A DNA stretch of 64,000 nucleotides, taken from Gammaproteobacteria bacterium (GTDB taxonomy: Bacteria; Pseudomonadota; Gammaproteobacteria; UBA4575). Location of the stretch: contig CBDCTA010000028.1 in assembly GCA_965221955.1 (NCBI GenBank), positions 96,001 through 160,000 of the forward strand. Direction: 5' to 3'. The translations under genes and the position numbers were made by a program. Below the pieces are notes generated by a model. That model saw nothing but the letters and a program-made list of their open reading frames with translations. It was not told the origin of the DNA and did not search any database. Of the stretch, positions 24,549-47,601 are shown piece by piece (the stretch's first letter is position 1; each line of letters starts with the position of its first letter).

Positions 24549-25925
24549 CTAGCCATTAGCAATGGAGAGCATTTCTTCACGGCGCGTAAATTTCTCTCGA
24601 GGTTTATTTTTGGGTTCTCCTGCTGCGACTTCTGCTGCATCAATTTTCATCCATTGGCCATAATTGATGTATTGCACACCATTGCCATCCAAAATTTTAT
24701 ACAAAGCTTCTCGACCAGGTTTATTTGCATCTAATTTCGACACATCTTCTAGCAACATATCTACTGACTCCACTGCGCATGCGCGGTTGGTACCTATAAT
24801 TCCAGAAGGACCACGCTTAATCCAACCTGCTGTATATAAACCTGGCACCACATCCCCTCCATGTTCAGTCGTAATACGTCCATTTTCATTAGGGATGGTG
24901 CCCCAACGATCATAGAAAGGTACACCTGGAATAGGCACACCATTGTAGCCAATACTGCGGAATAAAATTCCGCAGTCAATTTCCATGGTTTCACCAATTC
25001 CTTTACAAGATTGTTTAAATGGCTCTCCATCAAGAGTATTAATTTCAAATACAACTTTCTCTAAGCGACCATCACCTTCCAATCGAATAGGGCTTTTTAG
25101 AAACGTAGAAATACAGGTACGCGGCTTTCCTGTGTCTTCAGATTCTGCAAACTTTTGAAAGATTTCGACATTCTTTTTATTCCCACGCCCTTCTTTCATT
25201 TCCAGTTCTTGCAAACTCGTCTCGTTCAGCTCTAATTCCTTAGGATCAATATAGGCACGACAGTTTTCAATTTCTAAGAATTCTTTTAATTCTTTAGAAG
25301 CAAATTTGGCTTGCGCTGGACCTCGTCGCCCAACCACATAAATCGTTTTAATTTTACTCTCAGCTAATGCATCCAGTGCATGTTGCGAGATATCAGTATG
25401 TTTCAATTCGTCTACAGACTTCGCCAGAATTCGTGACACATCTGCTGCAACATTCCCTTGACCAATCACAATTGCAGTTTCGTGTGAAAGATCAAATGTA
25501 CGGTCCCGGTAATCTGGATGTCCGTTATACCAACCTACAAACTCTGTTGCCGTGTAACTACCTAATAAATCTTCGCCAGGTACGCCTAACTTACGATCGG
25601 TTTCAGCACCACAGGTATAAATTACGGCATGGTGTGTTTCTTGTAATTCTTCTGCCTTAATATCCTTACCTACCGTTACATTGCCGACAAAATTAAACTC
25701 AGGATTTTGTGCGATTTTCTTATATACTTCGATCGCCTGCTTGAGTTTTGGATGATCAGGAGCCACACCACTGCGCACCAGACCAAATGGTGCAGGCAAC
25801 CTTTCAATCAAATCGATTTCAACATTGAGGTCAGACTTAATTAATGCTTCGGTTGCATAGAAACCACTTGGACCACTTCCAACAATGGCTACACGTAATG
25901 GGTTACTTTCGCTTCCAAGACTCAT
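24549..25925 (-). CDS. Ferredoxin--NADP+ reductase, FprA/adrenodoxin-reductase type
   Basis: VGSGPSGFY, FGLVRSGVAPDH, FVGWYNGHP, IGQGNVAADV, GRRGP, GWIKRGPSG.IGTN, PREK. Confidence 0.92.
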   Translation of the reverse strand: MSLGSESNPLRVAIVGSGPSGFYATEALIKSDLNVEIDLIERLPAPFGLVRSGVAPDHPKLKQAIEVYKKIAQNPEFNFVGNVTVGKDIKAEELQETHHAVIYTCGAETDRKLGVPGEDLLGSYTATEFVGWYNGHPDYRDRTFDLSHETAIVIGQGNVAADVSRILAKSVDELKHTDISQHALDALAESKIKTIYVVGRRGPAQAKFASKELKEFLEIENCRAYIDPKELELNETSLQELEMKEGRGNKKNVEIFQKFAESEDTGKPRTCISTFLKSPIRLEGDGRLEKVVFEINTLDGEPFKQSCKGIGETMEIDCGILFRSIGYNGVPIPGVPFYDRWGTIPNENGRITTEHGGDVVPGLYTAGWIKRGPSGIIGTNRACAVESVDMLLEDVSKLDANKPGREALYKILDGNGVQYINYGQWMKIDAAEVAAGEPKNKPREKFTRREEMLSIANG

Positions 25926-25970: not shown

Positions 25971-26000
25971 AAACAAAACGCACAGGAAATTGCTGTGCGT
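25971..26000 (-). terminator. Hairpin between ferredoxin and FNR genes (terminator or mRNA stabiliser)
   Basis: ACGCACAG-caatttc-CTGTGCGT then TTTGTTT on the minus strand. Confidence 0.5.
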
Positions 26001-26153: not shown

Positions 26154-26459
26154 TTAGAATCCTAATTCTGATTTGCGATCTTCAGCACCAGGCAATGGAT
26201 CCATGGGCTCTTCAATTAAAGGCAGGTCACCGCATTTTTCAGCGTTGATTTCAACCCAGCCTTCTTGGCCTTCAGGAATGTCATCTTCTTCATAAATAGC
26301 CTCTACTGGACATTCTGGAATACATGCACTGCAATCAATACAAACCTCAGGGTCGATATAAAGCATTTCATCATCGTAGTGAAAACACGCAACTGGACAA
26401 ACCGAAACACAATCTGTGAATCGACAGCCCTTACAATTTTCAGTTACAACTGTAGTCAT
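26154..26459 (-). CDS. Two-cluster ferredoxin (FdxA-like)
   Basis: GGAGA RBS before ATG 26459; CKGCRFTDCVSVCP and CIDCSACIPECP; acidic. Confidence 0.92.
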   Translation of the reverse strand: MTTVVTENCKGCRFTDCVSVCPVACFHYDDEMLYIDPEVCIDCSACIPECPVEAIYEEDDIPEGQEGWVEINAEKCGDLPLIEEPMDPLPGAEDRKSELGF

Positions 26460-26546: not shown

Positions 26547-27365
26547 TTATTTTGAAAACAATAAAACCTCGCCACGATTGAGTTCAATCCCGTCTCCGCT
26601 ATAACGTTTGTAGATACCATTTAGGTGTTTATCTTGAATTTTCCTCTTGAAGCCATGGTCTTGCAACTTCCTAAGATAAAATCTTAAAAATAGTGGGCGA
26701 TATGTGCACGCATACTCGAAGCTAGGTAACATCTGCGCATCTTCTAATGATGCAATAGTGCCACGTTTCATACCTGCACCCGTTCGAATACCTAATTCAC
26801 CCAAAACAATAATCGAACCTGCCAACATATTTACACCTGTGAAATCACCTGCGTTTCCACCAATCGCAATAAAACCACGGCGCATGGCACTACCAATCTC
26901 GTTTTTTGCATCGCCATGAATAAATATTTCTCCACCTGTAATACCTACGGTATGACCTCTGTATGCAGCTCCAACCATGTGGCCAGCATTCTTTTTAACA
27001 ACAATACGACCACCCGACATTTCAGGGCCCACCCAATCTCCAGCATTACCTTCTACGACAATTTCTCCACCTGACATTCCTAATCCAAGGTGCATGCCTA
27101 CATCACCTTCAATGATGATTTTGCCCTCTGACATACCGGCACCAATCATTTTTACATTGGATAAATCGCCCTCGAGTAAAATTTCAGAATTGCCTTTACC
27201 TGTTACTGTAAAGAAATCGCCTAAATTTGCTTTTACATTGCCATGCATTACAGGTAAATGCTCAATACCTGATTGTGATAGACCAGATAGTGTTGCCGTG
27301 TTAAGCACTTCAGCTTCCAACGGTACATCTGGTTGAGTGTGCAATTTTAAATGCGCTGTAGACAT
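26547..27365 (-). CDS. fwdC: Formylmethanofuran dehydrogenase subunit C
   Basis: VPLEAE, GXGXG beta-helix repeats (G..MSGG.I.V.GNAG), GAGMKRGTI. Confidence 0.9.
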   Translation of the reverse strand: MSTAHLKLHTQPDVPLEAEVLNTATLSGLSQSGIEHLPVMHGNVKANLGDFFTVTGKGNSEILLEGDLSNVKMIGAGMSEGKIIIEGDVGMHLGLGMSGGEIVVEGNAGDWVGPEMSGGRIVVKKNAGHMVGAAYRGHTVGITGGEIFIHGDAKNEIGSAMRRGFIAIGGNAGDFTGVNMLAGSIIVLGELGIRTGAGMKRGTIASLEDAQMLPSFEYACTYRPLFLRFYLRKLQDHGFKRKIQDKHLNGIYKRYSGDGIELNRGEVLLFSK

Positions 27366-27418
27366 AATATGTTACTTTATATCTGACTTATTTCTTGTTG
27401 TATTTAATGTAAAAAAAT

Positions 27419-28309
27419 TTATCCAACTAATTCATTTAAGTGGAATTTATACTTACCTAGCTCTCCACCGTAATTACCTGCCGAAATCATTGTGGCACCT
27501 TTTTCTGCTGCCGCCTTTATACCTCGTCGCATGGCTTCTTTAACGGCATCTTCAGTGAGACCATCGATCACGATCTCATAAATGGCTTCGACATTTTCAG
27601 GCACAACTGTATTATTACTAATTGATCGAAGCGTTGGACAATATGCGTCATTTGTTGATGCAATCATGCCTTTATATTTTGCACCGATTTTACTTCCCGA
27701 TCGCACGACCCCCTGCGGGAAAGGCAAAAATACGCCACCCACTTCACGCATTGCATGAGTTGCTGCAATCGACGCGCGTAATGCGATGCCTCTTGTTGAA
27801 CCAAATATAATTAAATTACCCCCGCCTACTGCGGGTTTAATTCCGAATTGATCATCAATGAGAAACTCACCTGACATTACAGGAATCCGCCACAAGCGAA
27901 TGTCATCAATAAGCTTACTAATTTGATAACCATCACCAAAGAAACGTAATTTACCACCAACAGAAACAGAATCTTCAGATTCCAAACCGTTGTAACAGGC
28001 TGATGTCGGACAAGTCATCACACACTGACCGATACGATCAATTAATTGACCTGCAATGGTTTTAGAACTCATAGTGAATAACAACACGCTTATTCCAGGA
28101 CGACCATCTGGTGTATCTGATTCAGGTATTTCACACTCCACTGCAGCTTCTAATTTGCAACGAATTACAGATGTAGCAAACCCTGTCATAGAAGCCGCCG
28201 CCGCACGCGCCCATTGTTTCGTATCAGCAGTGATAATCACTCGCGAGCCACACATTTCAAATGCTTCTGCAAATGTATCTACAATTTCAGTTTTACCAAT
28301 TTTCATCAT
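27419..28309 (-). CDS. ftr: Formylmethanofuran--H4MPT formyltransferase
   Basis: DTFAEAF, TGFATSVI, TPDGRPG, RIGQCVMTCPT, RSGSK, AGNYGG.LG. Confidence 0.93.
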   Translation of the reverse strand: MMKIGKTEIVDTFAEAFEMCGSRVIITADTKQWARAAAASMTGFATSVIRCKLEAAVECEIPESDTPDGRPGISVLLFTMSSKTIAGQLIDRIGQCVMTCPTSACYNGLESEDSVSVGGKLRFFGDGYQISKLIDDIRLWRIPVMSGEFLIDDQFGIKPAVGGGNLIIFGSTRGIALRASIAATHAMREVGGVFLPFPQGVVRSGSKIGAKYKGMIASTNDAYCPTLRSISNNTVVPENVEAIYEIVIDGLTEDAVKEAMRRGIKAAAEKGATMISAGNYGGELGKYKFHLNELVG

Positions 28310-28322
28310 GTTGATAACTAAA

Positions 28323-29969
28323 CTAAGCTTTAGGGTTTACAGGAACCACTTCATGTTTGTGTAAATATTCTTCACCAATTGCATAGTTGCTAAACTTAAC
28401 CGAATAATAATCTTCAAAGAATGGCTCAATTTCACCCGCAATATCTTCGTTATAACCTGGTTTAGAATGCAGTAGTTTGCCCTTATGGTCTGTTGCAAAT
28501 TCATGATCTTTAATTACCGTTACACCATCTTTGATGACATAACGTGGTGCATTAAACATCGCTTCTTTATCATCTTCTTCAGTGTAGATTGTAATGTCCG
28601 CATCAGCGCCGTTTCCAAGATGACCTTTATTCGCCAACCCCAAGGCTCTTGCAGGGCCAGCACGAGTAATAATGGCAATTTCATTTAAAGTATATTCACG
28701 ATCTAAGTCACGCAAACTAGATTGGTCAATTGCTTTTTGATTTACATGTTTCAGTGCTTCTTTTCTATAACCACTATCCATTAATAACTTAATCAGTTTT
28801 GGATAACTCATAAATGAACCACCATTTGGATGATCTGTTGATAGCAAAACACGCCATGGGTCTTTTGAATGCAGAAACAATTCTAAACCCATTGCCCATT
28901 GCAAGGCGTGGGTGTACACACTTTCTTGATAAGAAAACGGAATAATTCCACACCCACTTTCACATTCTGTATCAGCATTTACCCACTTCGCAGGTTTTAC
29001 GTTTCTTAACATCCACGCCAAGGGGGCATCTGCAGTCATTGCAGTCGCTTTACCAAACATGACCTGACCCACATCACAGGTGATGTTTTCGTTATCATTT
29101 ACGTAATCAATTATATCTTTTACACCAGACTTGGCGTTTTTATTTAACTCTCCCCCAAAACTATGAAACTGGATATGCGCCATGTGTACTCGACGACCTT
29201 GTGCAGCTTTCATCGTGTCCAGCGTGGTACTGATGTTTCCGCTGTGACCCAAATTATTACAATGCACGTGTGGCGGATGAGGCAATCCTAATTCATGCGC
29301 AGCTTCAATAAAGCTTTCGATAACATGATTTGGCGTGATATCGTAGTGATCGATTTTCTCATTAACGTTGGTAATATTTGCATTTTTACGTCCCTTCCAT
29401 AATTCATCACTACCCACGTTTACTAGCTTAAGTGTGTGTGCATGCACGGAATTAATCCACCATGCAATTGCTTCTTTAAATTCGTTCTTGCGACCTTCTT
29501 TAAGTAGTTTATATAAAAATGCATTATTCCCAAGCAACACATAGAAACCTTTATCAATAACTGGTGTGTCATCTAATTCTTCTAAGGTATGTCTTGCAGA
29601 TATCGGTGGAACTGCTGCTTCCATTGCTGTGGTGTATCCCATGGTGGCATATCGATACCCAGTCGCAAAAGTAGAAGGCACAATACCTCCTGTTCCGGAA
29701 CGTGTAATCGCAGTTTTTGGATGCACATCTAAACGATGATCTTCAGGTTGAAGTTTTCGTGCTAGATTTACTTTTGCACCTGCAATATGACAATGAATAT
29801 CTACTGCGCCTGGCATAATCACCATGCCATGTGCATCTATTTTAGTTGCTGAACCCGAAACTGAATCAACGACCTTGCCGTCTTTTACACAGACGTCTTG
29901 AACTTTACCATCGATATTGTTTGCAGGATCGTATACACGACCATTTACAATTCTTAACTCTGAAGACAT
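28323..29969 (-). CDS. fwdA: Formylmethanofuran dehydrogenase subunit A (binuclear amidohydrolase)
   Basis: VYDPAN, DIHCH, GY.YA.MGYT, LKLVN, HVHCNNLG, HIQFHS, TDHPNGG. Confidence 0.93.
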   Translation of the reverse strand: MSSELRIVNGRVYDPANNIDGKVQDVCVKDGKVVDSVSGSATKIDAHGMVIMPGAVDIHCHIAGAKVNLARKLQPEDHRLDVHPKTAITRSGTGGIVPSTFATGYRYATMGYTTAMEAAVPPISARHTLEELDDTPVIDKGFYVLLGNNAFLYKLLKEGRKNEFKEAIAWWINSVHAHTLKLVNVGSDELWKGRKNANITNVNEKIDHYDITPNHVIESFIEAAHELGLPHPPHVHCNNLGHSGNISTTLDTMKAAQGRRVHMAHIQFHSFGGELNKNAKSGVKDIIDYVNDNENITCDVGQVMFGKATAMTADAPLAWMLRNVKPAKWVNADTECESGCGIIPFSYQESVYTHALQWAMGLELFLHSKDPWRVLLSTDHPNGGSFMSYPKLIKLLMDSGYRKEALKHVNQKAIDQSSLRDLDREYTLNEIAIITRAGPARALGLANKGHLGNGADADITIYTEEDDKEAMFNAPRYVIKDGVTVIKDHEFATDHKGKLLHSKPGYNEDIAGEIEPFFEDYYSVKFSNYAIGEEYLHKHEVVPVNPKA

Positions 29970-30050
29970 ATATTTTAGTTGTTATTTTTTACAACAACTC
30001 CATCGCTGCAGTTGCTCTAAATTTATTAATTATGTTATCCGTTTTAAAAT

Positions 30051-31424
30051 TTACGCAGCAACGCGTGCTTTACTTCCCTTAAGCTTTTCTTTAACGCGTT
30101 TGCGAATCGCCTCTAATACTTCTTGGTCGGATGGATAGGTCGATTCAAATGCAGGGCGCAAAGAAATCGGCACATCATCCATTCTATAAACTGTACCACC
30201 TGTGTTAATGCCATAAGTTGAAACTGCAAAACGCACTTTAGCAATACTACTTGTCACTGTGTCTTTTGTATCTAATGAAATAATTGGAATTTTCTTCATA
30301 TGTTCAATTGCAGCTTTAGGAAAATTTGACGCAGGATCAGAAGCAATAATCATCGCCGCATCCGCCTCTCCACGTGAAAGCAAATCAGTCGTTGTAAATT
30401 CACCTGGATTAAAACGAGGGTAGCCGCGATTGAAATTCACACCAAAAGGATATCCTGTTTGCCAAGACACAACATTATCAGCTCCTGTCACATTACCATG
30501 GCCACGTACAGGTTTAGCTACGAAGTGAGTAAATTCATTTAAATCTGCCGCTAATGACAATAACGCTCCCGAATTAAAATGCCGCCCTCTCGTCATCGTT
30601 AAACCCATACCAAAAAACAACACGCCAAATTGGCAGTTCTTCATGCGATCAACTAAGTCATCTAATACATCTCGTGATACGCCTGTTTGTTCTTCAATGT
30701 CGTTACTAATCTTTTTACCTTTAACCAACGCACGCAACGCCCATAGTACTTCAAAGTCTTTACCAGGTTTAAGTTTTACAAAGATATCCGCTACAGGCGC
30801 ACTTGGTGTTTTACGCACATCAAATAACACTACAGTACGATCTTTTTTCCCATTTGGAATGTACATACCTTTTGGTGTTACCGCATAACGTGTGAAATGT
30901 CGTGGATGTGATTCAGCTGGATTACCACCCCAGTAGATAATTAAATCTGCACGGTTCTTAACTTCACCTAATGTTGCAGTACTCTCCCCTACTCCTTGGA
31001 AGGCCATACCCGATGGACCGTGACAAACTGACGTTGTGGTATCAATGTTCCCGTTTATCGTATCCATGATATCTACGGTGACACGTTGTGCTTCACAAGT
31101 TGAATCACTCATTCCATACGTGATTGGAAACTTTGCATCAACTAAGATCTTTGCTGCTGCTTCAACACCTTCTTCAAAACTGGCTTTTTTACCATCAATT
31201 AACACTTCTGGGCGCGTATCTAAAGTGTGTTCGTAAAACCAGGCACGGCCTAAAACACACGCTTTTTTAGCTTTGGTAATTTTATGTTGATCTAGATCGA
31301 CTGTGAGTTCCATATCGTCACAAACACAACCACAAAAGGTGCACGTTGCGTCTTTAACGATTTTAATATTTTTATTTTCTTCTTTGGTTTTTACGGGTGC
31401 TTTTGCAGGCGCTGTTTCACTCAT
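30051..31424 (-). CDS. fwdB: Formylmethanofuran dehydrogenase subunit B with intact Fe-S and Mo/W-pterin motifs
   Basis: CTFCGCVCDD..AC, TTSVCHGP, TLGEVKNRAD, WGGNPAESHPRH..RY, RGHGNV, YRMDDVP. Confidence 0.92.
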   Translation of the reverse strand: MSETAPAKAPVKTKEENKNIKIVKDATCTFCGCVCDDMELTVDLDQHKITKAKKACVLGRAWFYEHTLDTRPEVLIDGKKASFEEGVEAAAKILVDAKFPITYGMSDSTCEAQRVTVDIMDTINGNIDTTTSVCHGPSGMAFQGVGESTATLGEVKNRADLIIYWGGNPAESHPRHFTRYAVTPKGMYIPNGKKDRTVVLFDVRKTPSAPVADIFVKLKPGKDFEVLWALRALVKGKKISNDIEEQTGVSRDVLDDLVDRMKNCQFGVLFFGMGLTMTRGRHFNSGALLSLAADLNEFTHFVAKPVRGHGNVTGADNVVSWQTGYPFGVNFNRGYPRFNPGEFTTTDLLSRGEADAAMIIASDPASNFPKAAIEHMKKIPIISLDTKDTVTSSIAKVRFAVSTYGINTGGTVYRMDDVPISLRPAFESTYPSDQEVLEAIRKRVKEKLKGSKARVAA

Positions 31425-31455
31425 AACAAATATTCCAAATAATTAAGTAATAAAT

Positions 31456-31800
31456 TTATCTTGCTTTAGTAACGGTAACTTCCATATGTTTAGACAATGG
31501 CATACCTGTTCCAGCAGTATCCGATGCCATCAATTCACTTGAAGGTGGCCCATACGGAATAAAAATCATTCCTGAGGGAAGGTCTTCATCTTTTTTACTT
31601 TTACAGGTCACTACAGTTTGGCCAACCTCTGACTTCAAACGAATTTTGTCACCATCTTTCAACTTAAGTCGCTTCATGTCTTTTTCATTCAGCTCAGCAG
31701 TAGAGGTTACTTTCTTATATTCGTCTTTAAGCTTGCCTTCATTTAGAGATGTCCCCTGGCTTTGTGACCGGCCGGGTACAAGTATCATGGTCTCCGCCAT
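31456..31800 (-). CDS. fwdD: FwdD molybdopterin-dinucleotide-binding subunit
   Basis: PGRS..QG, GMIFIPYGP, TAGTGMPLSK; directly upstream of fwdB. Confidence 0.88.
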   Translation of the reverse strand: MAETMILVPGRSQSQGTSLNEGKLKDEYKKVTSTAELNEKDMKRLKLKDGDKIRLKSEVGQTVVTCKSKKDEDLPSGMIFIPYGPPSSELMASDTAGTGMPLSKHMEVTVTKAR

Positions 31801-32159
31801 CTAGGATTCCTTATAAATACAAAAAGTAATAAGTTTTTACTGTAAGCGAGAGAAAATAGATCTTAGGCCAAATTTCGTTCCACCAAACGTATTCGATGAG
31901 AAAAACCGCCAATTGTCTACCCCAAATTTAAGGTAAAGAGGTAGTGTGTGCTAACTCTGCAGAGATATAATGTTAGCATATTTAACTTAATTTACACCTG
32001 CTTTAGCTAATATTTGAGGCTATATAGGGGTTAAAGCTGGGTAAGAAATAAACAGTTACAGCAAGTTAGCAACTAGCTTGAACAGGCTATAATTCGCTAC
32101 ACTAAACTGATAAGAACAATTGAATACCATAATAACAACCCTATTCAAGGAGATTTTCC

Positions 32160-32432
32160 ATGCCTAAATACATAATTGAACGTGAAATACCAGGTGCCGG
32201 TGATTTGACAGCTGCCGAGCTTCAAGGTATCTCGCAAAAATCTTGCAGCATTTTGAAAAACATGGGACCACAAATTCAATGGGTAGAAAGTGTTGTCACT
32301 GATGACAAAGTGTACTGCACTTATATTGCACCAAATGAAGATGAAATTCGTAAGCATGCCGAAGAAGGCGGCTTTCCAGCGAATAAGATCTCTGAAATAC
32401 GAGGAATGATTGACCCAACCACTTCTGAATAA
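32160..32432 (+). CDS. DUF4242 family protein
   Basis: MPKYIIEREIPGAG, QIQW..S.V..DK.YC.Y.A, GFPAN.I. Confidence 0.85.
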   Translation: MPKYIIEREIPGAGDLTAAELQGISQKSCSILKNMGPQIQWVESVVTDDKVYCTYIAPNEDEIRKHAEEGGFPANKISEIRGMIDPTTSE

Positions 32433-32444
32433 TCTCAATAAAAT

Positions 32445-32572
32445 CTAATTACATCGAGATTTTGATTTAGTATGAAGCGCAGTGCTTTCGAGAAGCAGAG
32501 TTTACATTTAAATAAATGAGCATCGCTGAAAGTACTGCAACGAAGTAATAGATCAAAAGATCACGTAATTAG
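32445..32572. repeat. ~130-bp nested palindromic element (RPE/MITE-like), copy 2
   Basis: CTAATTAC/GTAATTAG ends; TTTTGAT/ATCAAAA; GCAGTGCTTTC/GAAAGTACTGC; core AGAGTTTAC..TAAATGAG; AACGAAGTA. Confidence 0.65.
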
Positions 32573-32859
32573 GGAGAACCGAAGATACAACCAGAGTTAG
32601 TCACTACAATCGGAAAATCTCTAATGTCACGCATTACTTGCGCCACATTGTAACTTGTTAATAGTTCTCTGATCTCGTCTACTTCAACCTCAAGCAGACA
32701 CTCATCCATTACGCGTAATGTATACGTTGTCTCATTTTCGACAACATAAAAATTTAGGCTTTCATTTTTCTCATGCTCCCATTCTTCTACGTTAGCACTA
32801 GGAAAATGTTCAGAAATATATTCCAGAACAGGTTTTGCAAAATCATTTCGATTCAGCAT
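32569..32859 (-). CDS. Hypothetical acidic protein, last gene of the mtoX-associated run
   Basis: 96-aa ORF 4 bp after a TlpA gene. Confidence 0.65.
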   Translation of the reverse strand: MLNRNDFAKPVLEYISEHFPSANVEEWEHEKNESLNFYVVENETTYTLRVMDECLLEVEVDEIRELLTSYNVAQVMRDIRDFPIVVTNSGCIFGSP

Positions 32860-32863
32860 GCAA

Positions 32864-33538: not shown

Positions 33539-33582
33539 AGTACTGCTTAGATAGCTGCTCTACCAATAAGTTCTTCCGTTGA

Positions 33583-34101: not shown

Positions 34102-34231
34102 AACAAGAAAAAAGATAATTTAGACAAAACTAAATTTCTCAGATTTTATTCTCATGCGCTCTGGGACTCTTGGACAAACATATTTACTTGATTTTATTTC
34201 GTGTGCCCTGGGTTACTGGTTAACCAAACAA

Positions 34232-36336: not shown

Positions 36337-36366
36337 CTATGAAAATTTTTGTAGTACTGTTTTCAG

Positions 36367-41133: not shown

Positions 41134-42399
41134 ATGCAATTTAAAACTGTAACCTGTCCACATTGTGGGCTGCTGTGTGACGATCTGGAAATCAACGTTT
41201 CAAACTTATCCGTTGAATACACAGGACCCAATGGCCCCAAATGCGAACGAGCTATTCAAGCATTTGATGATGCATCGTTGAATGATAATGAAGTACCAAA
41301 GCCACTCATCTTGGGAAAACCCGTTTCTGAACAACAGGCATTAGAAAAAGCTGCTGAACTATTACGTAACGCCAAACTACCATTAATAAGCGGATTGATT
41401 GCAGATGTTCAAGCCAACAGAGAAGCGATCGCACTAACAGAAAAAATTGCTGGTGTCATAGACCACGAGAATGGGAGCGCGCTACGTAAAGGCGTAGCAG
41501 TAATGCAGCGCATGGGTGAAGTGCGTACTACACTAGCAGAAGTACGCAACCGAGCAGATTGTGTTGTGATTTTTGGTAACAAGATCACTACAAAATTTCC
41601 TCGTTTATTACCTCGAATATTGAGCCCAGAAAAAGCCTTAAGTAACGAAAATTATAAAAATAAAAAAATATTTATTCTTGATATTTCAAACGATGGAATA
41701 ACCCAATGTGAAGTTGAAAATAATATCACTCACGTGAAGTTCAATTATCCATTAATTGAATCTCTTGTTTATCGCTTTCAAGAAGTTATTACTCGACCAA
41801 AAGAATATTTCACAGATCGCGATCTACAGACTGAAGAGCTTTTTAAAATACTGGATACTATTTTATCCAGTCAGTACACAACTATTGTCTGGAGCACTAG
41901 TGATTTTAATCCAGAATCTGCTGAACACACCATACAAGCATTAACTGAAACGATTAAAACATTAATGAAAAATGTTCGTTGTGTAGGGTTACCTCTTGGC
42001 GGCTCCAAAGGCGAAATGACGGCAAATCAAGTTTCGACATGGCAAACGGGAGTCGCTTTACCTGTTTCTTTTGCGCAAGGCACTCCTATCCATGACCCTG
42101 TGTTATACGATGGAATGAAAATGTTGAAAAACTCAGAAACCGATTGCTTATTATGGGTGGCTACTTATAACTCGGAAAACATCCCACCTGAAAACAACAT
42201 CCCAACTATTTTATTGGGTCACCCAAAAATAAAATATGAGCATGCTGAAGTTTATCTTCCTGTTGGTGTACCTGGGATTGATCACCGCGGTTTGGCTTGT
42301 CGTACAGATAACGTTGCAACACTACCCTTACACGCACTTCGTGAAAGCAAGCTTTCTCCTGCAAACACTCTTTTAAATAAACTTATTCAGCTAATCTAA
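41134..42399 (+). CDS. fhcB: Formyltransferase/hydrolase complex subunit B (no pterin ligand)
   Basis: CPHCGLLCDD, TTLAEVRNRAD, WQTG, VGVPGIDH.G; lacks VCHG and RGH.N; no fwdD adjacent. Confidence 0.88.
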   Translation: MQFKTVTCPHCGLLCDDLEINVSNLSVEYTGPNGPKCERAIQAFDDASLNDNEVPKPLILGKPVSEQQALEKAAELLRNAKLPLISGLIADVQANREAIALTEKIAGVIDHENGSALRKGVAVMQRMGEVRTTLAEVRNRADCVVIFGNKITTKFPRLLPRILSPEKALSNENYKNKKIFILDISNDGITQCEVENNITHVKFNYPLIESLVYRFQEVITRPKEYFTDRDLQTEELFKILDTILSSQYTTIVWSTSDFNPESAEHTIQALTETIKTLMKNVRCVGLPLGGSKGEMTANQVSTWQTGVALPVSFAQGTPIHDPVLYDGMKMLKNSETDCLLWVATYNSENIPPENNIPTILLGHPKIKYEHAEVYLPVGVPGIDHRGLACRTDNVATLPLHALRESKLSPANTLLNKLIQLI

Positions 42400-42404
42400 C
42401 TTTT

Positions 42405-44063
42405 ATGGCGATTAAACTTTCAAGTGGCCAAGTGTATGATCCCGCACATCAAGTAGATGGTGAGAATAGAGATTTATATATTGTTGACGGCAAACTGCAA
42501 AGTAATTTATCCGACAGTGAAAAAATAGAACAAACGTATCAATTAGATGATTGCATAGTAATGGCAGGTGCAATCGATTTGCATACACATATAGGTGGTG
42601 GAAAAGTAAATATCGCCCGCACTATGATGTTGGATGATGCACATGATCATCCGCATGCAAGTTCTGAAATTTGCCGTGCTGGCAATGGCCATATCGTACC
42701 TTCTACATTTAGTACAGGTTATCGTTACGCTGAAATGGGTTACACCGCGTGCTTTGAACCTGCTGTTCTCCCCGTCAATGCTCGACAAGCCCATATGGAA
42801 ATGGCTGATACACCTATGGTGGACAAAGGTGGTTACGCAATGTTGGGGAATGACGACTTTTTATTAAACATGATCCACAGTGGCGCAACTCAACAAGCTA
42901 TTAACGACTATGTTGCATGGATATTAGATGCCAGCCAATGTATTGGCATTAAAGTAGTTAACGCTGGTGGCATTCATGCCTTTAAATATAATCAACGAAG
43001 ACTTGATATAGATGAGACCGGCCCTGCAGGCAGCAAACCTCGAGAAATCATTAACAAACTTAGTAGAGCCGTGCATGATCTTGGACTTGCGCACCCTTTA
43101 CATGTTCACGCAAGTAACTTAGGTGTACCTGGTAACTTTGAGTCAACACTGGCTACCATGTCTGCAGCGGATGGTTTACCGATCCATCTCACACATATTC
43201 AGTTTCATAGTTATGGCACTGAAGGTGACTATAAGTTTTCTTCAGCGGCCTGCGAAATTGCAGAAGCCATTAACTACAATAAAAATGTTACCGCAGATGT
43301 TGGGCAAATCATGTTTGGCCAAACCATCACAACCTCTGGCGACACCATGATGCAGTATTTTGGCCATGATCATGCTTCACCAAAAAAATGGACAGTGATG
43401 GACATTGAATGCGAAGCAGGCTGCGGTGTGATTCCATTTAAATATCGTGATAAAAGTTTTGTAAACGCATTGCAATGGGCCATTGGTTTAGAAATATTTT
43501 TACAAGTAAACGATCCGTGGCGTGTATTTCTCACCACCGATCATCCTAATGGCGCGCCTTTTACAAGCTATCCTCACTTAATAAAACTATTAATGGATCA
43601 CTCATTTAGAAATGATGTATTCAGCATCGTTCATGCTGATGCACAAAAAGCATCAAACTTAGCCGCGATGGATCGCGAATATTCTTTATATGAAATCGCC
43701 ATCATGACGCGCGCAGCACCGGCTAAAATATTAGGTTTAAAAGGTCATGGTCATTTAGGTGATGGTGCGCATGCAAATATCACGGTATATCGTAAACAAG
43801 ACGATGTTGAACAAATGTTTGCGAAACCTGCTTATGTATTCAAAAACGGCACTTTAATTGTTAAGGATGGCAAAATAATTGAAACGGTTCAAGGCGTCAC
43901 TCATGTAACTAAGCCCGAATACGACCCTGCTATCGAAAAACCATTGAAGAAGTACTTTGATGATTATCAAACTATTTCTCTAAATAACTTTAAAATTTCA
44001 AATGATGAAATGGTAGAATGCATCGGTAGCGACATAGAAACGCATTCTTGTAAGAATAATTAA
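42405..44063 (+). CDS. fhcA: Fhc subunit A
   Basis: DLHTHIGGGKVNIAR, IKVVNAGG, HVHASNLG, HIQFHSYG, TTDHPNGAPF. Confidence 0.93.
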   Translation: MAIKLSSGQVYDPAHQVDGENRDLYIVDGKLQSNLSDSEKIEQTYQLDDCIVMAGAIDLHTHIGGGKVNIARTMMLDDAHDHPHASSEICRAGNGHIVPSTFSTGYRYAEMGYTACFEPAVLPVNARQAHMEMADTPMVDKGGYAMLGNDDFLLNMIHSGATQQAINDYVAWILDASQCIGIKVVNAGGIHAFKYNQRRLDIDETGPAGSKPREIINKLSRAVHDLGLAHPLHVHASNLGVPGNFESTLATMSAADGLPIHLTHIQFHSYGTEGDYKFSSAACEIAEAINYNKNVTADVGQIMFGQTITTSGDTMMQYFGHDHASPKKWTVMDIECEAGCGVIPFKYRDKSFVNALQWAIGLEIFLQVNDPWRVFLTTDHPNGAPFTSYPHLIKLLMDHSFRNDVFSIVHADAQKASNLAAMDREYSLYEIAIMTRAAPAKILGLKGHGHLGDGAHANITVYRKQDDVEQMFAKPAYVFKNGTLIVKDGKIIETVQGVTHVTKPEYDPAIEKPLKKYFDDYQTISLNNFKISNDEMVECIGSDIETHSCKNN

Positions 44064-44067
44064 AACC

Positions 44068-44985
44068 ATGATTATCAATGGCGTTGAAATAGAAGATACG
44101 TTTGCTGAAGCATTCCCTATGCGTGCAACACGCGTAATAATTACTGCCATCAACTACAAATGGGCGCGCCATGCAGCAGATACAATGACAGGTTTTGCAA
44201 CCTCTGTAATTGGTTGTGGCGTTGAAGCGGGAATTGAAAAAGTGATCGGTAATCACGAAACGCCTGACGGTAGGCCAGGTGTTTCTGTTCTACTATTTTC
44301 TACTGATAAAAAAACGTTAGAAAAACAATTGCAGACACGCATTGGGCAATGCGTGCTGACCTGTCCCACTACTGCAGTTTTTTCCGGTATGGATGGAGAC
44401 GACCAAATTTCACTCGGAAAAAACATTCGTTATTTTGGCGACGGATTTCAAACTTCTAAAAAAATTGGCAACAAAAGATTTTGGCGCGTTCCAGTCATGG
44501 ATGGCGAATTTTTATGTGCCGAAAGTACTGGCTACCAAAAAGCTATTGGTGGTGGGAATATTTTAGTTTTTGCGCGCGGTATTTCACATGCATTGCTTGC
44601 TTGTGAAGCTGCTATTGATGCAATCAGCATGTTACCTAACATCATCATGCCGTTTCCTGGCGGTGGTGTGCGTTCTGGTTCAAAAGTTGGATCAAAATAT
44701 AAATTTTTAAGTGCCTCCACTAATCATCCTTATTGCCCTACCTTAAAAGGTCGTCCTGATAATGTGCTTGGAAAAAATATCGAAGCAGCAATGGAAATTG
44801 TTATTGACGGTTTAACTAAAGAAGATGTGTCTTTAGCAATGTATCGTGGTATTGAAGCGATATGCGATCTTGGAAAATCTCAAGGCATCGAAAAAATTAC
44901 TGGTGGTAATTATGGTGGTAAGTTAGGGCCACATCATTTTCATTTAAGAGAAATCATGCATGAGTCTTACAACCGTTACATATAA
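44068..44985 (+). CDS. fhcD: Fhc subunit D (formyltransferase)
   Basis: MIINGVEIEDTFAEAF, GFATSVIGCG.EAGI, RSGSKVGSKY, GNYGGKLGPHHFHL. Confidence 0.93.
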   Translation: MIINGVEIEDTFAEAFPMRATRVIITAINYKWARHAADTMTGFATSVIGCGVEAGIEKVIGNHETPDGRPGVSVLLFSTDKKTLEKQLQTRIGQCVLTCPTTAVFSGMDGDDQISLGKNIRYFGDGFQTSKKIGNKRFWRVPVMDGEFLCAESTGYQKAIGGGNILVFARGISHALLACEAAIDAISMLPNIIMPFPGGGVRSGSKVGSKYKFLSASTNHPYCPTLKGRPDNVLGKNIEAAMEIVIDGLTKEDVSLAMYRGIEAICDLGKSQGIEKITGGNYGGKLGPHHFHLREIMHESYNRYI

Positions 44986-45796
44986 AAGCGACTCAAATAA
45001 AGAACCGCAATTTCGCTTAGATATGCACTGGCTTAGTAATGCGATTGATTGTGCCTGCAGCAGTGATGATGCCAAAAAACTTACTCTACAGATTGGTAAC
45101 GAAACATCGCCAGTTGGTGATCATTTTGAGATAGAGGGAAACTTTGATCAACAAACGATTCGTTTAGAAAATGCAAATCAAAAGATGGATTTTGTTGGCT
45201 ACGCTTTACCTGAAAACATAGAACTTAATGTTGCAGGCGATGTAGGTCATTATGCTGGCAGTTCCTTAAAGGGTGGTAAATTAAAAATTCAAGGAAATGT
45301 CGATGACTTTGCTGGCTGCGAGATGTCCAAGGGAGTGCTTGAAATCAACGGCAATGCTGGCGACTACTTAGGTGGTGCACAGGCAGGAAATAAAAAAGGC
45401 ATGTCCGGAGGTTCTATCCTTGTACATGGTAACAGTAATCATTTCACAGGAGATCTAATGCGCCGTGGCACTATCATGGTAGTGGGCAATATTGGCGATT
45501 ACTGTGCTAGCCGAATGATTGCTGGCACAATTGCGAATTTGGGCACCATAGGCAAACAAGTTGGGGTCGGTATGCGCAGAGGAACGATTCTATTACCCCA
45601 CAAACCCAAAGATGTGATCACTGGATTTCATGATTGTGGGCGTCACAACTTAGGCTATTTAACGCTACTTCTGCATGAGATCAGAAGCTTTGAAAGCACC
45701 TTCCAGTCTCTTCATCCTATGAGACGGCGTGTTCAGCGTTATTTAGGCGATACTGCGGTAGGTGGACAAGGGGAAATGCTAATTTGGATTGGCTGA
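44960..45796 (+). CDS. fhcC: Fhc subunit C
   Basis: GXGXG repeats, GDLMRRG, RMIAGTI, GMRRGT, RYLGD...GQGE. Confidence 0.9.
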   Translation: MSLTTVTYKSDSNKEPQFRLDMHWLSNAIDCACSSDDAKKLTLQIGNETSPVGDHFEIEGNFDQQTIRLENANQKMDFVGYALPENIELNVAGDVGHYAGSSLKGGKLKIQGNVDDFAGCEMSKGVLEINGNAGDYLGGAQAGNKKGMSGGSILVHGNSNHFTGDLMRRGTIMVVGNIGDYCASRMIAGTIANLGTIGKQVGVGMRRGTILLPHKPKDVITGFHDCGRHNLGYLTLLLHEIRSFESTFQSLHPMRRRVQRYLGDTAVGGQGEMLIWIG

Positions 45797-47581: not shown

Positions 47582-47601
47582 GGAATGTTGGAGAAAAAGT
47601 A

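What the first reader, a model, noticed from the sequence alone, without database searches (positions are those of the whole stretch)
26547..31800. Apparently intact archaeal-type formylmethanofuran dehydrogenase (fwdD-fwdB-fwdA-ftr-fwdC) in a proteobacterial-looking genome
Seen: FwdB keeps the [4Fe-4S] motif (CTFCGCVCDD plus a fourth Cys in KACVLG), the metal-ligand Cys/His motif TTSVCHGP, NPAESHPRH and RGHGNV. It is preceded by fwdD, the pterin-dinucleotide-binding subunit. Known: in methanogen Fwd/Fmd, FwdBD form the W/Mo formate/CO2 site. Methylotroph Fhc (Methylorubrum) has lost FwdD and the pterin and only hydrolyses formyl-methylofuran to formate. Inference: this operon encodes a redox-active formyl-MFR/CO2 enzyme with its own formyltransferase, in the B-A-D-C order of Fhc, like an ancestral Fhc. 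I recall fwdD-bearing clusters noted in Planctomycetes and NC10 genomes, but know of no biochemical characterisation in bacteria.
Basis: partly seen in the sequence, partly recalled or inferred. Interest (0 to 1): 0.9.

Follow-up and report, generated by a model that had tools for sequence, protein, structure and literature searches.

The report
Bacterial formylmethanofuran dehydrogenase wired to NADP
An uncultured marine gammaproteobacterium carries an intact, archaeal-type metal enzyme that should burn a formaldehyde-derived formyl group straight to CO2, and its operon also holds a ferredoxin and an NADPH-ferredoxin reductase that probably carry away the electrons.

Summary
Five intact minus-strand genes, fwdD-fwdB-fwdA-ftr-fwdC, fill 26547-31800 exactly, and every quoted motif is present. 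FwdB keeps the four [4Fe-4S] cysteines and Cys134, His135 and Arg307. These align with Cys118, His119 and Arg288 of Methanothermobacter wolfeii FwdB. The window's second cluster (fhcBADC, 41134-45796) has lost them.

A 7Fe ferredoxin (26154-26459) and an FprA/adrenodoxin-reductase-type NADPH:ferredoxin reductase (24549-25925) follow fwdC. In 51 of 52 related genome loci with enough flank the seven genes are colinear. In other lineages the ferredoxin-reductase pair sits upstream of fwdD instead.

My best reading is a Mo/W formyl-methanofuran dehydrogenase that works oxidatively: formyl-MFR goes to CO2, and the electrons pass through ferredoxin and FprA to NADP+. Nothing here is biochemical.

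The operon is not chimeric or archaeal contamination, since complete-chromosome relatives share its synteny. It is sparse but widespread: 20 of 401 sampled Gammaproteobacteria have it.

Bacterial FwdB and fwdDBA-ftr-fwdC operons are already in print as genomic observations. My searches found no biochemical test and no mention of the ferredoxin/FprA link. This scan has noted the same operon type before on other DNA. I class it as a new variant of a known kind, of moderate-to-high interest.

The parts
31456..31800 (-). fwdD: 114-aa pterin-dinucleotide-binding 'domain IV' cap subunit
   Evidence: NF042908 FwdD at E 8e-25 and PF01568 at 48.6 bits, above cut-off. Best solved relatives are FwdD chains: 2ki8 at E 9e-20, then 9sfi_S and 5t5i_D. 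It lies 31 nt upstream of fwdB.
30051..31424 (-). fwdB: 457-aa Mo/W-bisPGD and [4Fe-4S] subunit with an intact active site
   Evidence: TIGR03129 at 506 bits against a cut-off of 327.8. Full-length alignment to archaeal FwdB structures at 327-389 bits, against 56 bits to M. extorquens FhcB 6s6y_B. C28, C31, C35, C56, C134, H135 and R307 are present.
28323..29969 (-). fwdA: 548-aa amidohydrolase subunit (formyl-MFR hydrolysis and condensation site)
   Evidence: TIGR03121 at 702 bits. More similar to archaeal FwdA (436-485 bits) than to M. extorquens FhcA (346 bits). H59, H61, K181, H234/H236, H265 and D379 are conserved in both window paralogues.
27419..28309 (-). ftr: formylmethanofuran:H4MPT formyltransferase embedded between fwdA and fwdC
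   Evidence: TIGR03119 at 409 bits, plus PF01913 and PF02741. Equally similar to M. extorquens FhcD (300.7 bits) and M. kandleri Ftr (299.6 bits).
26547..27365 (-). fwdC: 272-aa beta-helix (GXGXG) subunit
   Evidence: TIGR03122 at 252 bits and PF01493.
26154..26459 (-). fdxA-like 7Fe ferredoxin, 101 aa. The listed ORF runs from a TTG at 26498, but the likely start is the ATG at 26459, which follows an AGGAG.
   Evidence: NF045490 FdxA at E 5e-32. Gap-free alignment to Azotobacter-type 7Fe ferredoxin I structures, with 1frk at E 9e-28. All 74 homologues from related loci start with MTT/MPT at this ATG (70 printed). All nine Cys are invariant or nearly invariant across 32 sequences.
24549..25925 (-). 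fprA-like NADPH:ferredoxin oxidoreductase of the adrenodoxin-reductase type, 458 aa
   Evidence: Full-length match to M. tuberculosis FprA (1lqt_A, E 1.5e-108) and bovine adrenodoxin reductase (1cjc_A, E 6e-98). Colinear with the fwd genes in 51 of 52 eligible genome loci.
25978..26000 (-). Terminator-like hairpin in the 228-nt gap between fdx and fpr. It may be an attenuator or the 3' end of the first transcript.
   Evidence: 8-pair stem, 5 of them GC, followed by a T-run. The scan as a whole was not above chance (9 sites found, 6.2 expected), so this is weak.
41134..45796 (+). Paralogous canonical fhcB-fhcA-fhcD-fhcC cluster. It is context, not part of the operon.
   Evidence: FhcB2 scores only 230 bits on TIGR03129, below cut-off. 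FhcA2 scores 724 bits, FhcD2 429 bits and FhcC2 219 bits. FhcB2 has 'HENGSALRKG' where FwdB has Cys-His. FhcA2 is closest to M. extorquens FhcA (414 bits).
45905..50355 (+). NAD-linked formate dehydrogenase genes (a NuoE/NuoF-like fusion and FdsA-like alpha subunit) directly after fhcC. Context only.
   Evidence: TIGR01959/TIGR01958 matches, and TIGR01591 Fdh-alpha at 802 bits, above cut-off.

Best explanation
The seven genes fwdD-fwdB-fwdA-ftr-fwdC-fdx-fpr encode a bacterial, redox-active formyl-methanofuran dehydrogenase that works in the oxidative direction.

Proposed route:
1. Formaldehyde, for example from the methanethiol oxidase encoded just upstream, is carried on H4MPT to formyl-H4MPT.
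2. The operon's own Ftr moves the formyl group to methanofuran (or methylofuran).
3. FwdA hydrolyses formyl-MFR.
4. The formate passes internally to the Mo- or W-bis-pterin site of FwdB/FwdD and is oxidised to CO2.
5. The two electrons leave through the FwdB [4Fe-4S] cluster to the co-encoded 7Fe ferredoxin.
6. The FprA-type flavoprotein passes them to NADP+.

The route therefore bypasses free formate and the Fhc-plus-formate-dehydrogenase pair encoded 10 kb away.

What is shown: gene content, intact catalytic residues, conserved synteny and co-occurrence.
What is inferred: cofactor loading, the direction of the reaction, and ferredoxin, FprA and NADP+ as the electron path.
For: 1. Active site. 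C134, H135, R307 and the four Fe-S Cys align with the M. wolfeii residues (residue roles from Hemmann 2019). FwdD is present. The FwdA metal ligands are conserved.

2. Purifying selection on the redox parts.
- Among 59 genome loci with FwdB below 80% identity, FwdB (median 76.3%) and the ferredoxin (76.9%) are the most conserved proteins. FwdA is 68.9%, FwdD 65.6%, Fpr 65.1%, Ftr 61.9% and FwdC 60.4%.
- In the 18 loci that also hold a separate Fhc cluster, FhcB is only 32-36% identical to the window's FhcB, against 58-67% for FhcA.

3. Synteny.
- A-Ftr-C-Fdx-Fpr is colinear in 51 of 52 genome loci with at least 5.6 kb downstream. The one miss, L070, holds all the genes.
- Ten metagenome loci show the same order.
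- In L118, L119 and L158 the Fdx-Fpr pair lies directly upstream of fwdD instead. L131 and L145 are partial examples. In L116 the pair lies 4.6 kb upstream.

4. Co-occurrence in one evenly drawn sample of 401 Gammaproteobacteria.
- 20 genomes have a FwdB of at least 494 bits. The next best score is 409 bits.
- 19 of those 20 also hold an FprA orthologue of at least 58% identity. The exception, G010, is 75% complete.
- Four of the 20 (G141, G308, G296, G039) are flagged unpublished. Without them the count is 15 of 16.

5. Replacement of the formate route. Five of the 20 have no FhcB-type match. Of the four complete ones, G317 and G400 also lack an Fdh-alpha above cut-off.

6. Cofactor supply and pathway. 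The genome encodes MoeA and MobA, a TupABC-like transporter, two Fae copies, Mch and MfnB.

7. Thermodynamics. The formyl-MFR/CO2 couple is about -0.53 V (review passage). NADP+ at about -0.32 V is recalled. Oxidation is therefore downhill.

8. Precedent for a swapped electron module. The Ca. Ethanoperedens enzyme oxidises formyl-MFR using F420.
Against: - There is no biochemical, expression or metal data. No RNA run was listed for this stretch.
- No FwdF/FwdG-type polyferredoxin gene lies in the operon, so the exit path is inferred from neighbourhood alone.
- A 228-nt gap with a terminator-like hairpin separates fdx from fpr.
- Exceptions to the linkage: L135 has several kb of flank on both sides without fdx or fpr. 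L165 has 2.2 kb downstream without them. L141 has fdx but no fpr.
- Five sampled genomes hold the FprA orthologue without a FwdB of at least 494 bits. In G204 and G381 it lies next to an FhcB-type gene.
- The organism looks aerobic, since methanethiol oxidase uses O2. Oxygen tolerance of such a site is unproven.
- The FwdD match is below NCBIfam's narrow cut-off (87 bits against 175).
- ModA was not found and the TupA-like match is below its cut-off (248 against 400), so the metal is unknown.
Confidence: 0.58

Rival explanations
1. The complex is redox-active and oxidative, but the neighbouring ferredoxin and FprA are not its dedicated partners. Electrons would leave to another acceptor, or the reduced ferredoxin would feed other low-potential reactions rather than NADP+.
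For: No polyferredoxin or docking subunit is encoded. fpr is set apart by 228 nt and a terminator-like hairpin. L135, L165 and L141 lack one or both genes. In G204 and G381 the FprA orthologue lies next to an FhcB-type gene without a high-scoring FwdB.
Against: The pair stays with the fwd genes in two different arrangements and across GC contents from 0.34 to 0.70. 19 of 20 FwdB-type genomes hold the orthologue, against 5 of the other 380 scored. The ferredoxin is as conserved as FwdB.
Confidence: 0.2
2. The cluster is a second Fhc-like formyltransferase/hydrolase. FwdB and FwdD would be scaffolds without a metal cofactor, and formate would be the product.
For: The only studied bacterial homologue, M. 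extorquens Fhc, works this way. The embedded ftr and the B-A-ftr-C order are Fhc-like. Only 15 of 122 full-length FwdB-family representatives keep the Cys-His-Arg triad, so loss of the triad is common in this family.
Against: All seven diagnostic residues are kept, and the four Fe-S Cys, Cys134, His135 and Arg307 are invariant in the 34-row alignment. FwdD is present, whereas Fhc lacks it. FwdB is the best-conserved enzyme subunit here, while FhcB is the least conserved subunit of true Fhc clusters. A genuine degenerate Fhc already exists 10 kb away.
Confidence: 0.08
3. The enzyme runs in the methanogen direction. CO2 and MFR would be reduced to formyl-MFR, with NADPH as donor via FprA and ferredoxin, to feed C1 units into H4MPT.
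For: Archaeal Fwd works reductively, and FprA-type reductases are reversible in vitro (recalled).
Against: NADPH (about -0.32 V, recalled) cannot drive a couple at about -0.53 V without energy coupling. No bifurcating module or hydrogenase lies in the operon. The surrounding genes are oxidative: methanethiol oxidase, Fae, Mch, Fhc and NAD-linked formate dehydrogenase. No RuBisCO was found, and I did not search for an acetyl-CoA pathway.
Confidence: 0.06
4. The operon is an assembly or binning artefact, that is, an archaeal fragment joined to a bacterial contig.
For: The genome is a 29-contig assembly with 4.3% estimated contamination. FwdB and FwdA are most similar to archaeal structures.
Against: GC is even across the window: 0.398 in the operon against 0.35-0.43 elsewhere. 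The same operon with the same flanking mtoX-SCO1-mauG-resA and chrA genes is found in the closest related loci, several of them records titled chromosome, of 1.7-2.8 Mb. RapA, EF-G and the bacterial-type Fhc lie on the same contig.
Confidence: 0.01

Closest known systems
Archaeal tungsten/molybdenum formylmethanofuran dehydrogenase FwdABCDFG (M. wolfeii, PDB 5T5I; also 9SFI, 9SW6, 7BKB)
   Same: FwdA, FwdB, FwdC and FwdD are all present and align full-length. FwdB scores 327-389 bits and FwdA 436-485 bits. The [4Fe-4S] Cys, the Cys-His metal site and the Arg are conserved.
   Different: There are no FwdF/FwdG polyferredoxin genes. A 7Fe ferredoxin and an FprA-type NADPH reductase are encoded instead. 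ftr sits inside the operon. The host is an apparently aerobic gammaproteobacterium, and the predicted direction is oxidative. Identity to the representatives I could name as archaeal is only 36-40%.
Formyltransferase/hydrolase complex FhcABCD of Methylorubrum extorquens (PDB 6S6Y; Hemmann et al. 2019)
   Same: The B-A-(ftr)-C gene order is shared, with the formyltransferase gene inside the cluster. So is the role at the end of the bacterial H4MPT formaldehyde-oxidation pathway.
   Different: Fhc has no FwdD, no Fe-S domain and Ser in place of the catalytic Cys, and it releases formate. Here all of these features are retained. FwdB scores 56 bits against FhcB 6s6y_B, compared with 378 bits against M. 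wolfeii FwdB. The window's other cluster is the true Fhc counterpart.
F420-reducing formylmethanofuran dehydrogenase of Ca. Ethanoperedens thermophilum (PDB 8RJA)
   Same: It oxidises formyl-MFR to CO2 and has a different electron-accepting module bolted onto a conserved FwdABCD core (review passage). FwdB scores 378 bits against 8rja_B.
   Different: Its acceptor there is F420, through an attached reductase, in an anaerobic archaeon. Here the predicted acceptor chain is 7Fe ferredoxin, then FprA, then NADP+, in a bacterium.
Published bacterial fwd/fmd operons: fwdDBA-ftr-fwdC in Hakuba Actinobacteria (Merino et al. 2020); fmdD-B-A-C in Rhodopirellula sp. P2, a Lake Washington fosmid and Ca. 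Methylomirabilis oxyfera (Kim et al. 2016); bacterial FwdB hits in the MopB survey of Wells et al. 2023
   Same: The five-gene core and order match the Hakuba operon, including the retained Fe-S domain and Cys118 equivalent (passages read).
   Different: The passages I read name no gammaproteobacterial clade and no ferredoxin/FprA partner. The Hakuba paper discusses CO2 reduction in an anaerobe. [quoted passage not shown]
M. tuberculosis FprA (PDB 1LQT) and Azotobacter-type 7Fe ferredoxin I
   Same: Full-length similarity of the two downstream proteins: E 1.5e-108 to 1lqt_A and E 9e-28 to 1frk. That FprA reduces 7Fe ferredoxins is recalled, not checked here.
   Different: Those proteins are not linked to C1 metabolism. 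Here the pair is operon-linked to a formyl-MFR dehydrogenase.

Membership tests
Fwd/Fmd formylmethanofuran dehydrogenase (Mo/W-bisPGD type) | FwdB N-terminal [4Fe-4S] motif (CxxCxxxC...C) | tested here: met
   C28, C31, C35 and C56. All four are invariant in the 34-row alignment.
Fwd/Fmd formylmethanofuran dehydrogenase (Mo/W-bisPGD type) | Metal-ligand Cys or Sec followed by His, plus the active-site Arg (M. wolfeii C118, H119, R288) | tested here: met
   C134, H135 and R307 align. Positions are and residue roles.
Fwd/Fmd formylmethanofuran dehydrogenase (Mo/W-bisPGD type) | Separate FwdD subunit (domain IV cap of the pterin) | tested here: met
   PF01568 is above cut-off. NF042908 gives E 8e-25 but is below its narrow cut-off. 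The best solved relatives are all FwdD chains.
Fwd/Fmd formylmethanofuran dehydrogenase (Mo/W-bisPGD type) | FwdA amidohydrolase with binuclear-metal ligands, and an FwdC beta-helix subunit | tested here: met
   TIGR03121 at 702 bits and TIGR03122 at 252 bits. H59, H61, K181, H234/H236, H265 and D379 are conserved.
Fwd/Fmd formylmethanofuran dehydrogenase (Mo/W-bisPGD type) | FwdF/FwdG polyferredoxin electron-transfer subunits | tested here: not met
   No such gene lies between 24.5 and 33.5 kb. The only Fe-S protein is a 101-aa 7Fe ferredoxin, whose match to 5t5i_G is weak (E 3e-4). Published archaeal and bacterial fwdDBAC operons also lack F/G, so this subunit is not universal in the family.
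Fwd/Fmd formylmethanofuran dehydrogenase (Mo/W-bisPGD type) | Bound Mo or W bis-PGD and formyl-MFR:acceptor redox activity | not testable with these tools
   Only supporting context is available: MoeA, MobA and TupABC-like genes are in the genome.
Fhc formyltransferase/hydrolase complex | B subunit without the catalytic Cys-His-Arg and without an Fe-S domain, and no FwdD | tested here: not met
   The operon's B subunit keeps all of them and FwdD is present. The cluster is therefore not filed as Fhc. The window's second cluster lacks the Cys-His but still has a CxxCxxxC motif.
Fhc formyltransferase/hydrolase complex | Formyltransferase gene inside the cluster, between A and C | tested here: met
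   ftr lies at 27419-28309 between fwdA and fwdC.
FprA/adrenodoxin-reductase-type NADPH:ferredoxin reductase | Full-length similarity to characterised members, with an N-terminal dinucleotide-binding fold | tested here: met
   1lqt_A at E 1.5e-108 over residues 9-456, and 1cjc_A at E 6e-98. PF13450 scores above its cut-off; PF07992 matches just below its cut-off. Cofactor and NADPH specificity were not tested.
7Fe (3Fe-4S plus 4Fe-4S) ferredoxin I | Cys ligand pattern of the Azotobacter FdI type | tested here: met
   Gap-free alignment to 1frk and 1axq. C9, C12, C17, C21, C40, C43, C46 and C50 are invariant, and C25 is nearly invariant. Assigning each Cys to a cluster is recalled, not tested.

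The most novel reading that the evidence does not exclude
This would be an oxygen-tolerant, NADP+-linked tungsten (or molybdenum) formyl-methanofuran dehydrogenase with its own formyltransferase. Such an Fwd-Ftr machine would oxidise formyl-H4MPT to CO2 without free formate. It would replace both Fhc and formate dehydrogenase in small-genome marine Gammaproteobacteria. It would also represent the retained ancestral state from which the hydrolytic Fhc complexes of methylotrophs degenerated several times.
Probability: 0.35. Interest if true: 0.75.

Novelty: new variant of a known kind. Interest (0 to 1): 0.58.

Why it matters
Textbook bacterial C1 oxidation ends with the Fhc hydrolase releasing formate. 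Formyl-methanofuran dehydrogenase is treated as an enzyme of anaerobic archaea.

If this operon works as read, aerobic marine and soil Gammaproteobacteria oxidise the formyl group directly to CO2 and capture the low-potential electrons as reduced ferredoxin or NADPH. These include sponge-associated and upland-soil-cluster lineages, going by record titles. That would change carbon and redox budgets in models of methylated-sulfur and C1 turnover.

It would also offer a compact CO2/formyl-converting Mo/W enzyme, possibly oxygen-tolerant and coupled to a pyridine nucleotide, which is of interest for biocatalysis.

Finally, it gives a concrete, testable candidate for the open question of whether bacterial FwdB homologues are redox-active, and a living comparison for how Fhc lost its dehydrogenase.

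Tried and rejected
- **Complex prediction, FwdB plus ferredoxin, each with its own alignment.** No verdict: the score was 0.22 against a mark of 0.32. I take nothing from this either way.
- **The look-up of sequencing runs.** No RNA holder was listed. Eight DNA or unknown runs hold part of the stretch and one holds 97% of the words, which may be the source sample. I did not lay reads, because contigs of DNA runs would not show expression.
- **Promoter and terminator scan.** Counts were at or below chance: 16 promoter-like sites against 26 expected, and 9 terminator-like sites against 6.2. Only the hairpin between fdx and fpr is mentioned, and as weak.
- **ModA search.** Nothing found. The PF12849 search found a TupA-like protein and PstS. 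The TupA match is below its cut-off, so the metal stays open.
- **Naming the tree rows.** Of the 20 representatives looked up for the tree, only three clusters gave archaeal names. The bacterial-versus-archaeal reading of the tree is correspondingly limited.
- **FwdA and Ftr trees including archaea.** Not built, because no tool gave me archaeal FwdA or Ftr sequences as stored proteins. I used bit scores against solved structures instead.
- **Adam et al. 2019 (Nature Microbiology).** It is cited by others on the evolution of this pathway. It is not held and I could not read it. It may already treat bacterial Fwd.
- **Supplementary files.** Those of Kim 2016, Merino 2020 and Wells 2023 were not opened and may list proteobacterial FwdB sequences.
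- **A script error.** My first attempt to count loci holding both clusters was wrong, because the Fhc queries cross-hit the Fwd genes. For that comparison I use the resolved maps.

Full report
**What is in the sequence**

One search lists five tightly spaced minus-strand ORFs that fill the reported interval exactly.

| Gene | Coordinates | Length |
|---|---|---|
| fwdD | 31800-31456 | 114 aa |
| fwdB | 31424-30051 | 457 aa |
| fwdA | 29969-28323 | 548 aa |
| ftr | 28309-27419 | 296 aa |
| fwdC | 27365-26547 | 272 aa |

The gaps between them are 31, 81, 13 and 53 nt. NCBIfam and Pfam assign them as follows:
- FwdD: NF042908 at E 8e-25, and PF01568 above cut-off.
- FwdB: TIGR03129 at 506 bits against a cut-off of 327.8.
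- FwdA: TIGR03121 at 702 bits.
- Ftr: TIGR03119 at 409 bits.
- FwdC: TIGR03122 at 252 bits.

None of the genes is interrupted.

**Is FwdB of the redox kind?**

Against solved structures, FwdB aligns end to end with archaeal FwdB chains: 9sfi_Q at 389 bits, 5t5i_B and 8rja_B at 378, 9sw6_J at 356 and 7bkb_H at 327. It scores only 56 bits against the degenerate FhcB of Methylorubrum extorquens, 6s6y_B.

In the printed alignment to M. wolfeii FwdB, the query's Cys134-His135 lie on Cys118-His119 and Arg307 lies on Arg288. Query positions were checked. Hemmann et al. 2019 name exactly these residues as catalytic and as lost in FhcB, together with the Fe-S domain and FwdD (passages read). The Fe-S cysteines C28, C31, C35 and C56 are present.

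FwdD's best solved relatives are all FwdD chains. FwdA keeps H59, H61, K181, H234/H236, H265 and D379.

The window's second cluster (41134-45796, plus strand, fhcB-A-D-C) behaves differently. Its B subunit scores 230 bits, below the TIGR03129 cut-off. It has 'HENGSALRKG' where the Cys-His should be. Its A subunit is closest to M. extorquens FhcA, at 414 bits against 356-392 for archaeal FwdA. The operon's FwdA shows the reverse, at 436-485 bits against 346. The paralogues are 25% (B), 42% (A), 52% (Ftr) and 31% (C) identical. The window therefore holds one canonical Fhc set, followed directly by an NAD-type formate dehydrogenase (45905-50355), and one Fwd-type set.

A ferredoxin gene follows fwdC after 87 nt. 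An FAD enzyme gene follows that after a further 228 nt.

The ferredoxin most likely starts at the ATG at 26459, behind an AGGAG. All 74 homologues from related loci start there. It aligns without gaps to Azotobacter-type 7Fe ferredoxin I (1frk, E 9e-28), and its cysteines are invariant or nearly so.

The 458-aa protein at 25925-24549 is a full-length relative of M. tuberculosis FprA (1lqt_A, E 1.5e-108) and bovine adrenodoxin reductase. Both are NADPH:ferredoxin reductases.

**Is the seven-gene unit real?**

*Genome collection.* The 80 best loci came from a scan of one genome per species. Of the 52 with at least 5.6 kb downstream of fwdB, 51 hold fwdA-ftr-fwdC-fdx-fpr colinear on one strand. 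The exception, L070, holds all the genes but failed my span or order criterion. fwdD was found in 79 of 80 loci, and L060 has no room for it.

*Metagenome collection.* The scan returned:
- ten further loci with the same order;
- three loci (L118, L119, L158), plus two partial ones (L131, L145), in which fdx-fpr lies directly upstream of fwdD instead;
- L116, where the pair lies 4.6 kb upstream.

Contig GC ranges from 0.34 to 0.70.

*Exceptions.* L135 has flank on both sides without fdx or fpr. L165 has 2.2 kb downstream without them. L141 has fdx but no fpr.

*Co-occurrence.* TIGR03129 scores in an evenly drawn sample of 401 Gammaproteobacteria are bimodal. Twenty genomes in 11 families score 494-520 bits. 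The rest score 409 bits or less. With the same sample, 19 of the 20 hold an FprA orthologue of at least 58% identity. Those in G141 and G099 are partial, and the miss, G010, is 75% complete. Only 5 of the other 380 scored genomes hold one. Four of the 20 (G141, G308, G296, G039) are flagged unpublished. Without them the counts are 16 of 397 and 15 of 16. These genomes are related to one another, so I treat the numbers as description, not as a test.

*Wider phylum.* A sample of 401 Pseudomonadota gave only one further genome, and it belongs to the same class.

**Selection pattern**

Among 59 genome loci whose FwdB is below 80% identical to the window's, the median identities are as follows.

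| Protein | Median identity |
|---|---|
| Ferredoxin | 76.9% |
| FwdB | 76.3% |
| FwdA | 68.9% |
| FwdD | 65.6% |
| Fpr | 65.1% |
| Ftr | 61.9% |
| FwdC | 60.4% |

In the 18 loci that also carry a separate Fhc cluster, FhcB is 32-36% identical to the window's FhcB and FhcA is 58-67%. The B subunit is thus the most constrained protein of the Fwd set and the least constrained of the Fhc set. That is what a catalytic versus a scaffolding role predicts.

**Physiological context**

On its own contig the genome encodes Fae (a second copy lies elsewhere), Mch and the methanofuran-biosynthesis enzyme MfnB. It also encodes MoeA and MobA and a TupABC-like oxyanion transporter, whose TupA match is below cut-off. 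I found no ModA, no PQQ methanol dehydrogenase above cut-off and no RuBisCO. The genome is 96.6% complete.

Directly upstream of fwdD lie a methanethiol oxidase gene (mtoX, 37825-36446), a SCO1/SenC gene, a MauG-like gene, two TlpA/ResA-like genes and two small conserved ORFs. This block is syntenic in the nearest relatives. Methanethiol oxidase makes formaldehyde (established knowledge, recalled), which would feed this pathway.

Five of the 20 FwdB-type genomes show no FhcB-type match at all. Of the four complete ones, G317 (the window's own family) and G400 also lack an Fdh-alpha above cut-off, while G254 and G052 have one. In those two genomes the Fwd-type enzyme appears to be the only way to finish oxidising the formyl group.

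**Mechanism proposed**

Ftr loads the formyl group onto the furan cofactor. FwdA hydrolyses it. FwdB/FwdD oxidise the channelled formate to CO2. The electrons pass from the FwdB [4Fe-4S] cluster to the 7Fe ferredoxin, then to FprA, then to NADP+.

The formyl-MFR/CO2 couple is about -0.53 V (review passage). NADP+ at about -0.32 V is recalled. Oxidation is therefore downhill, and reduction by NADPH is not feasible without coupling. An archaeal precedent for swapping the electron module in the oxidative direction is the F420-reducing enzyme of Ca. Ethanoperedens. Cofactor loading, direction and partners are inferences.

**Evolution**

A FastTree of 133 FwdB-family rows and a careful IQ-TREE of 70 rows, rooted on the window's FdsA, agree on three points:
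- The seven-gene (gamma) clade is monophyletic, with support 100/99.
- It lies in a 55-row group with support 100/98. That group also holds a D-B-A-x-ftr-C clade (L128 type), a clade with TGA at the catalytic position (L153, L159), a D-B-x-A-(mobA)-C clade that lies next to moeA genes and an aldehyde:ferredoxin oxidoreductase gene, the D-B fusions P0189 and P0190, and all degenerate FhcB types, including canonical FhcB on a long branch.
- The three clusters I could name as archaeal (Methanoculleus, Methanobrevibacter/Methanobacterium and Hodarchaeales) lie outside this group, next to the root.

Caveats:
- Most rows are unnamed.
- The outgroup is one long branch.
- The bootstrap had not fully settled.
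- FhcB is prone to long-branch effects.
- Only 15 of 122 full-length representatives keep the Cys-His-Arg triad, while nearly all keep the four Fe-S cysteines.

**Not an artefact**

GC is even across the window. The operon and both flanks are syntenic in several records titled chromosome, of 1.7-2.8 Mb. Record titles label 68 of 80 loci Pseudomonadota. Eight titled 'candidatus Porisulfidus' carry no lineage. Four carry other phyla, which I take to be binning labels.

**What is already known**

- Wells et al. [quoted passage not shown]
- Kim et al. 2016 had reported fmdD-B-A-C in a planctomycete, a Lake Washington fosmid and Ca. Methylomirabilis oxyfera.
- Merino et al. 2020 reported fwdDBA-ftr-fwdC with an intact Cys118 in Actinobacteria.
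- Wells et al. 2023 counted 149 bacterial FwdB hits.

For all of these I read passages found by term search, not whole papers or supplements. My ten literature searches found no biochemical study of a bacterial enzyme of this type and no mention of a ferredoxin/FprA partner. The 2024 review of these enzymes lists only the Fhc complex as a bacterial relative. Adam et al. 2019 could not be read.

Earlier notes of this scan describe the same operon type on other DNA. One of them describes a gammaproteobacterial seven-gene operon 'wired to NADP+'. I reached the same reading before opening those notes (my analysis up). They are not independent evidence.

**Verdict**

I class this as a new variant of a known enzyme kind. 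It is widespread but uncultured, uncharacterised, and directly testable.

Noticed in passing
window 32145-37825 (minus strand): A methanethiol oxidase cluster lies directly upstream of fwdD. It runs mtoX (36446-37825), SCO1/SenC-like (35587-36336), MauG-like di-haem (34232-35590), two TlpA/ResA-like thiol:disulfide oxidoreductases (33583-34101 and 32864-33538), then two small ORFs with no family (32569-32859 and 32145-32438). The whole block is syntenic in the nearest relatives. It suggests methanethiol is a formaldehyde source for this pathway.
   Followed up: partly
window 38095-39477 (minus strand): A second methanethiol-oxidase copy appears split. A 278-aa ORF (38641-39477) matches only model positions 1-207 of 408. 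A separate 134-aa ORF (38095-38499) matches the C-terminal part of SBP56. It is probably a broken paralogue.
   Followed up: no
window 41134-42399 (FhcB2) and representatives P0189-P0338: The degenerate FhcB of the canonical cluster still has CPHCGLLCDD. Nearly all triad-less FwdB-family representatives also keep four aligned Cys. M. extorquens FhcB, by contrast, lacks the whole Fe-S domain. Many 'hydrolase-type' B subunits may therefore still bind a [4Fe-4S] cluster of unknown use.
   Followed up: partly
L153:853 and L159:1697 (metagenome loci): An in-frame TGA lies exactly at the catalytic Cys position of FwdB ('TSL*HGP') in two high-GC metagenome loci. These are candidate selenocysteine forms. 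Kim et al. 2016 report such a form in a planctomycete.
   Followed up: partly
L098 and L109 (metagenome loci): A more distant high-GC clade has the order fwdD-B-(151-174 aa ORF with no family)-A-(mobA in L098; a 247-aa ORF without family in L109)-C. Two moeA genes lie next to it, one of them fused to a PBP-like domain. In L098 an aldehyde:ferredoxin oxidoreductase gene is also adjacent. No ftr, fdx or fpr was seen. An earlier scan note assigns this layout to Pirellulaceae, which I did not check.
   Followed up: partly
G000:C3:86754-90422 (L166): The only recognisable Mo/W oxyanion uptake genes in the genome are TupA-, TupB- and TupC-like. TupA scores 248 bits against a cut-off of 400. No ModA was found. 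This hints at tungsten use, or at a Tup-like molybdate system.
   Followed up: partly
window 22374-23759 (minus strand): A chromate-transporter-family (ChrA) gene lies downstream of fpr and keeps this position in the nearest relatives. Whether it moves another tetrahedral oxyanion, such as molybdate or tungstate, is open.
   Followed up: no
genomes G204, G381 and G361 (class sample): An FprA orthologue lies next to an FhcB-type gene (287 and 331 bits) in G204 and G381, with no FwdB of at least 494 bits in either genome. In G361 it lies next to a FwdB-like gene that scores 424.9 bits over two pieces of a single 468-aa open frame without stops. These may be intermediate or decaying forms of the operon.
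   Followed up: no
proteins P0189, P0190, P0194, P0196, P0205, P0222, P0280, P0322: These are FwdD-FwdB fusion proteins of 570-640 aa. One cluster is named Methanoculleus. The D and B parts are thus fused in some lineages.
   Followed up: partly
window 23950-24525 (+) and 40479-40868 (-): A hemerythrin-domain gene lies between fpr and chrA. A pterin-4a-carbinolamine dehydratase gene lies upstream of fhcB. Whether either is relevant to the C1 genes is unknown.
   Followed up: no
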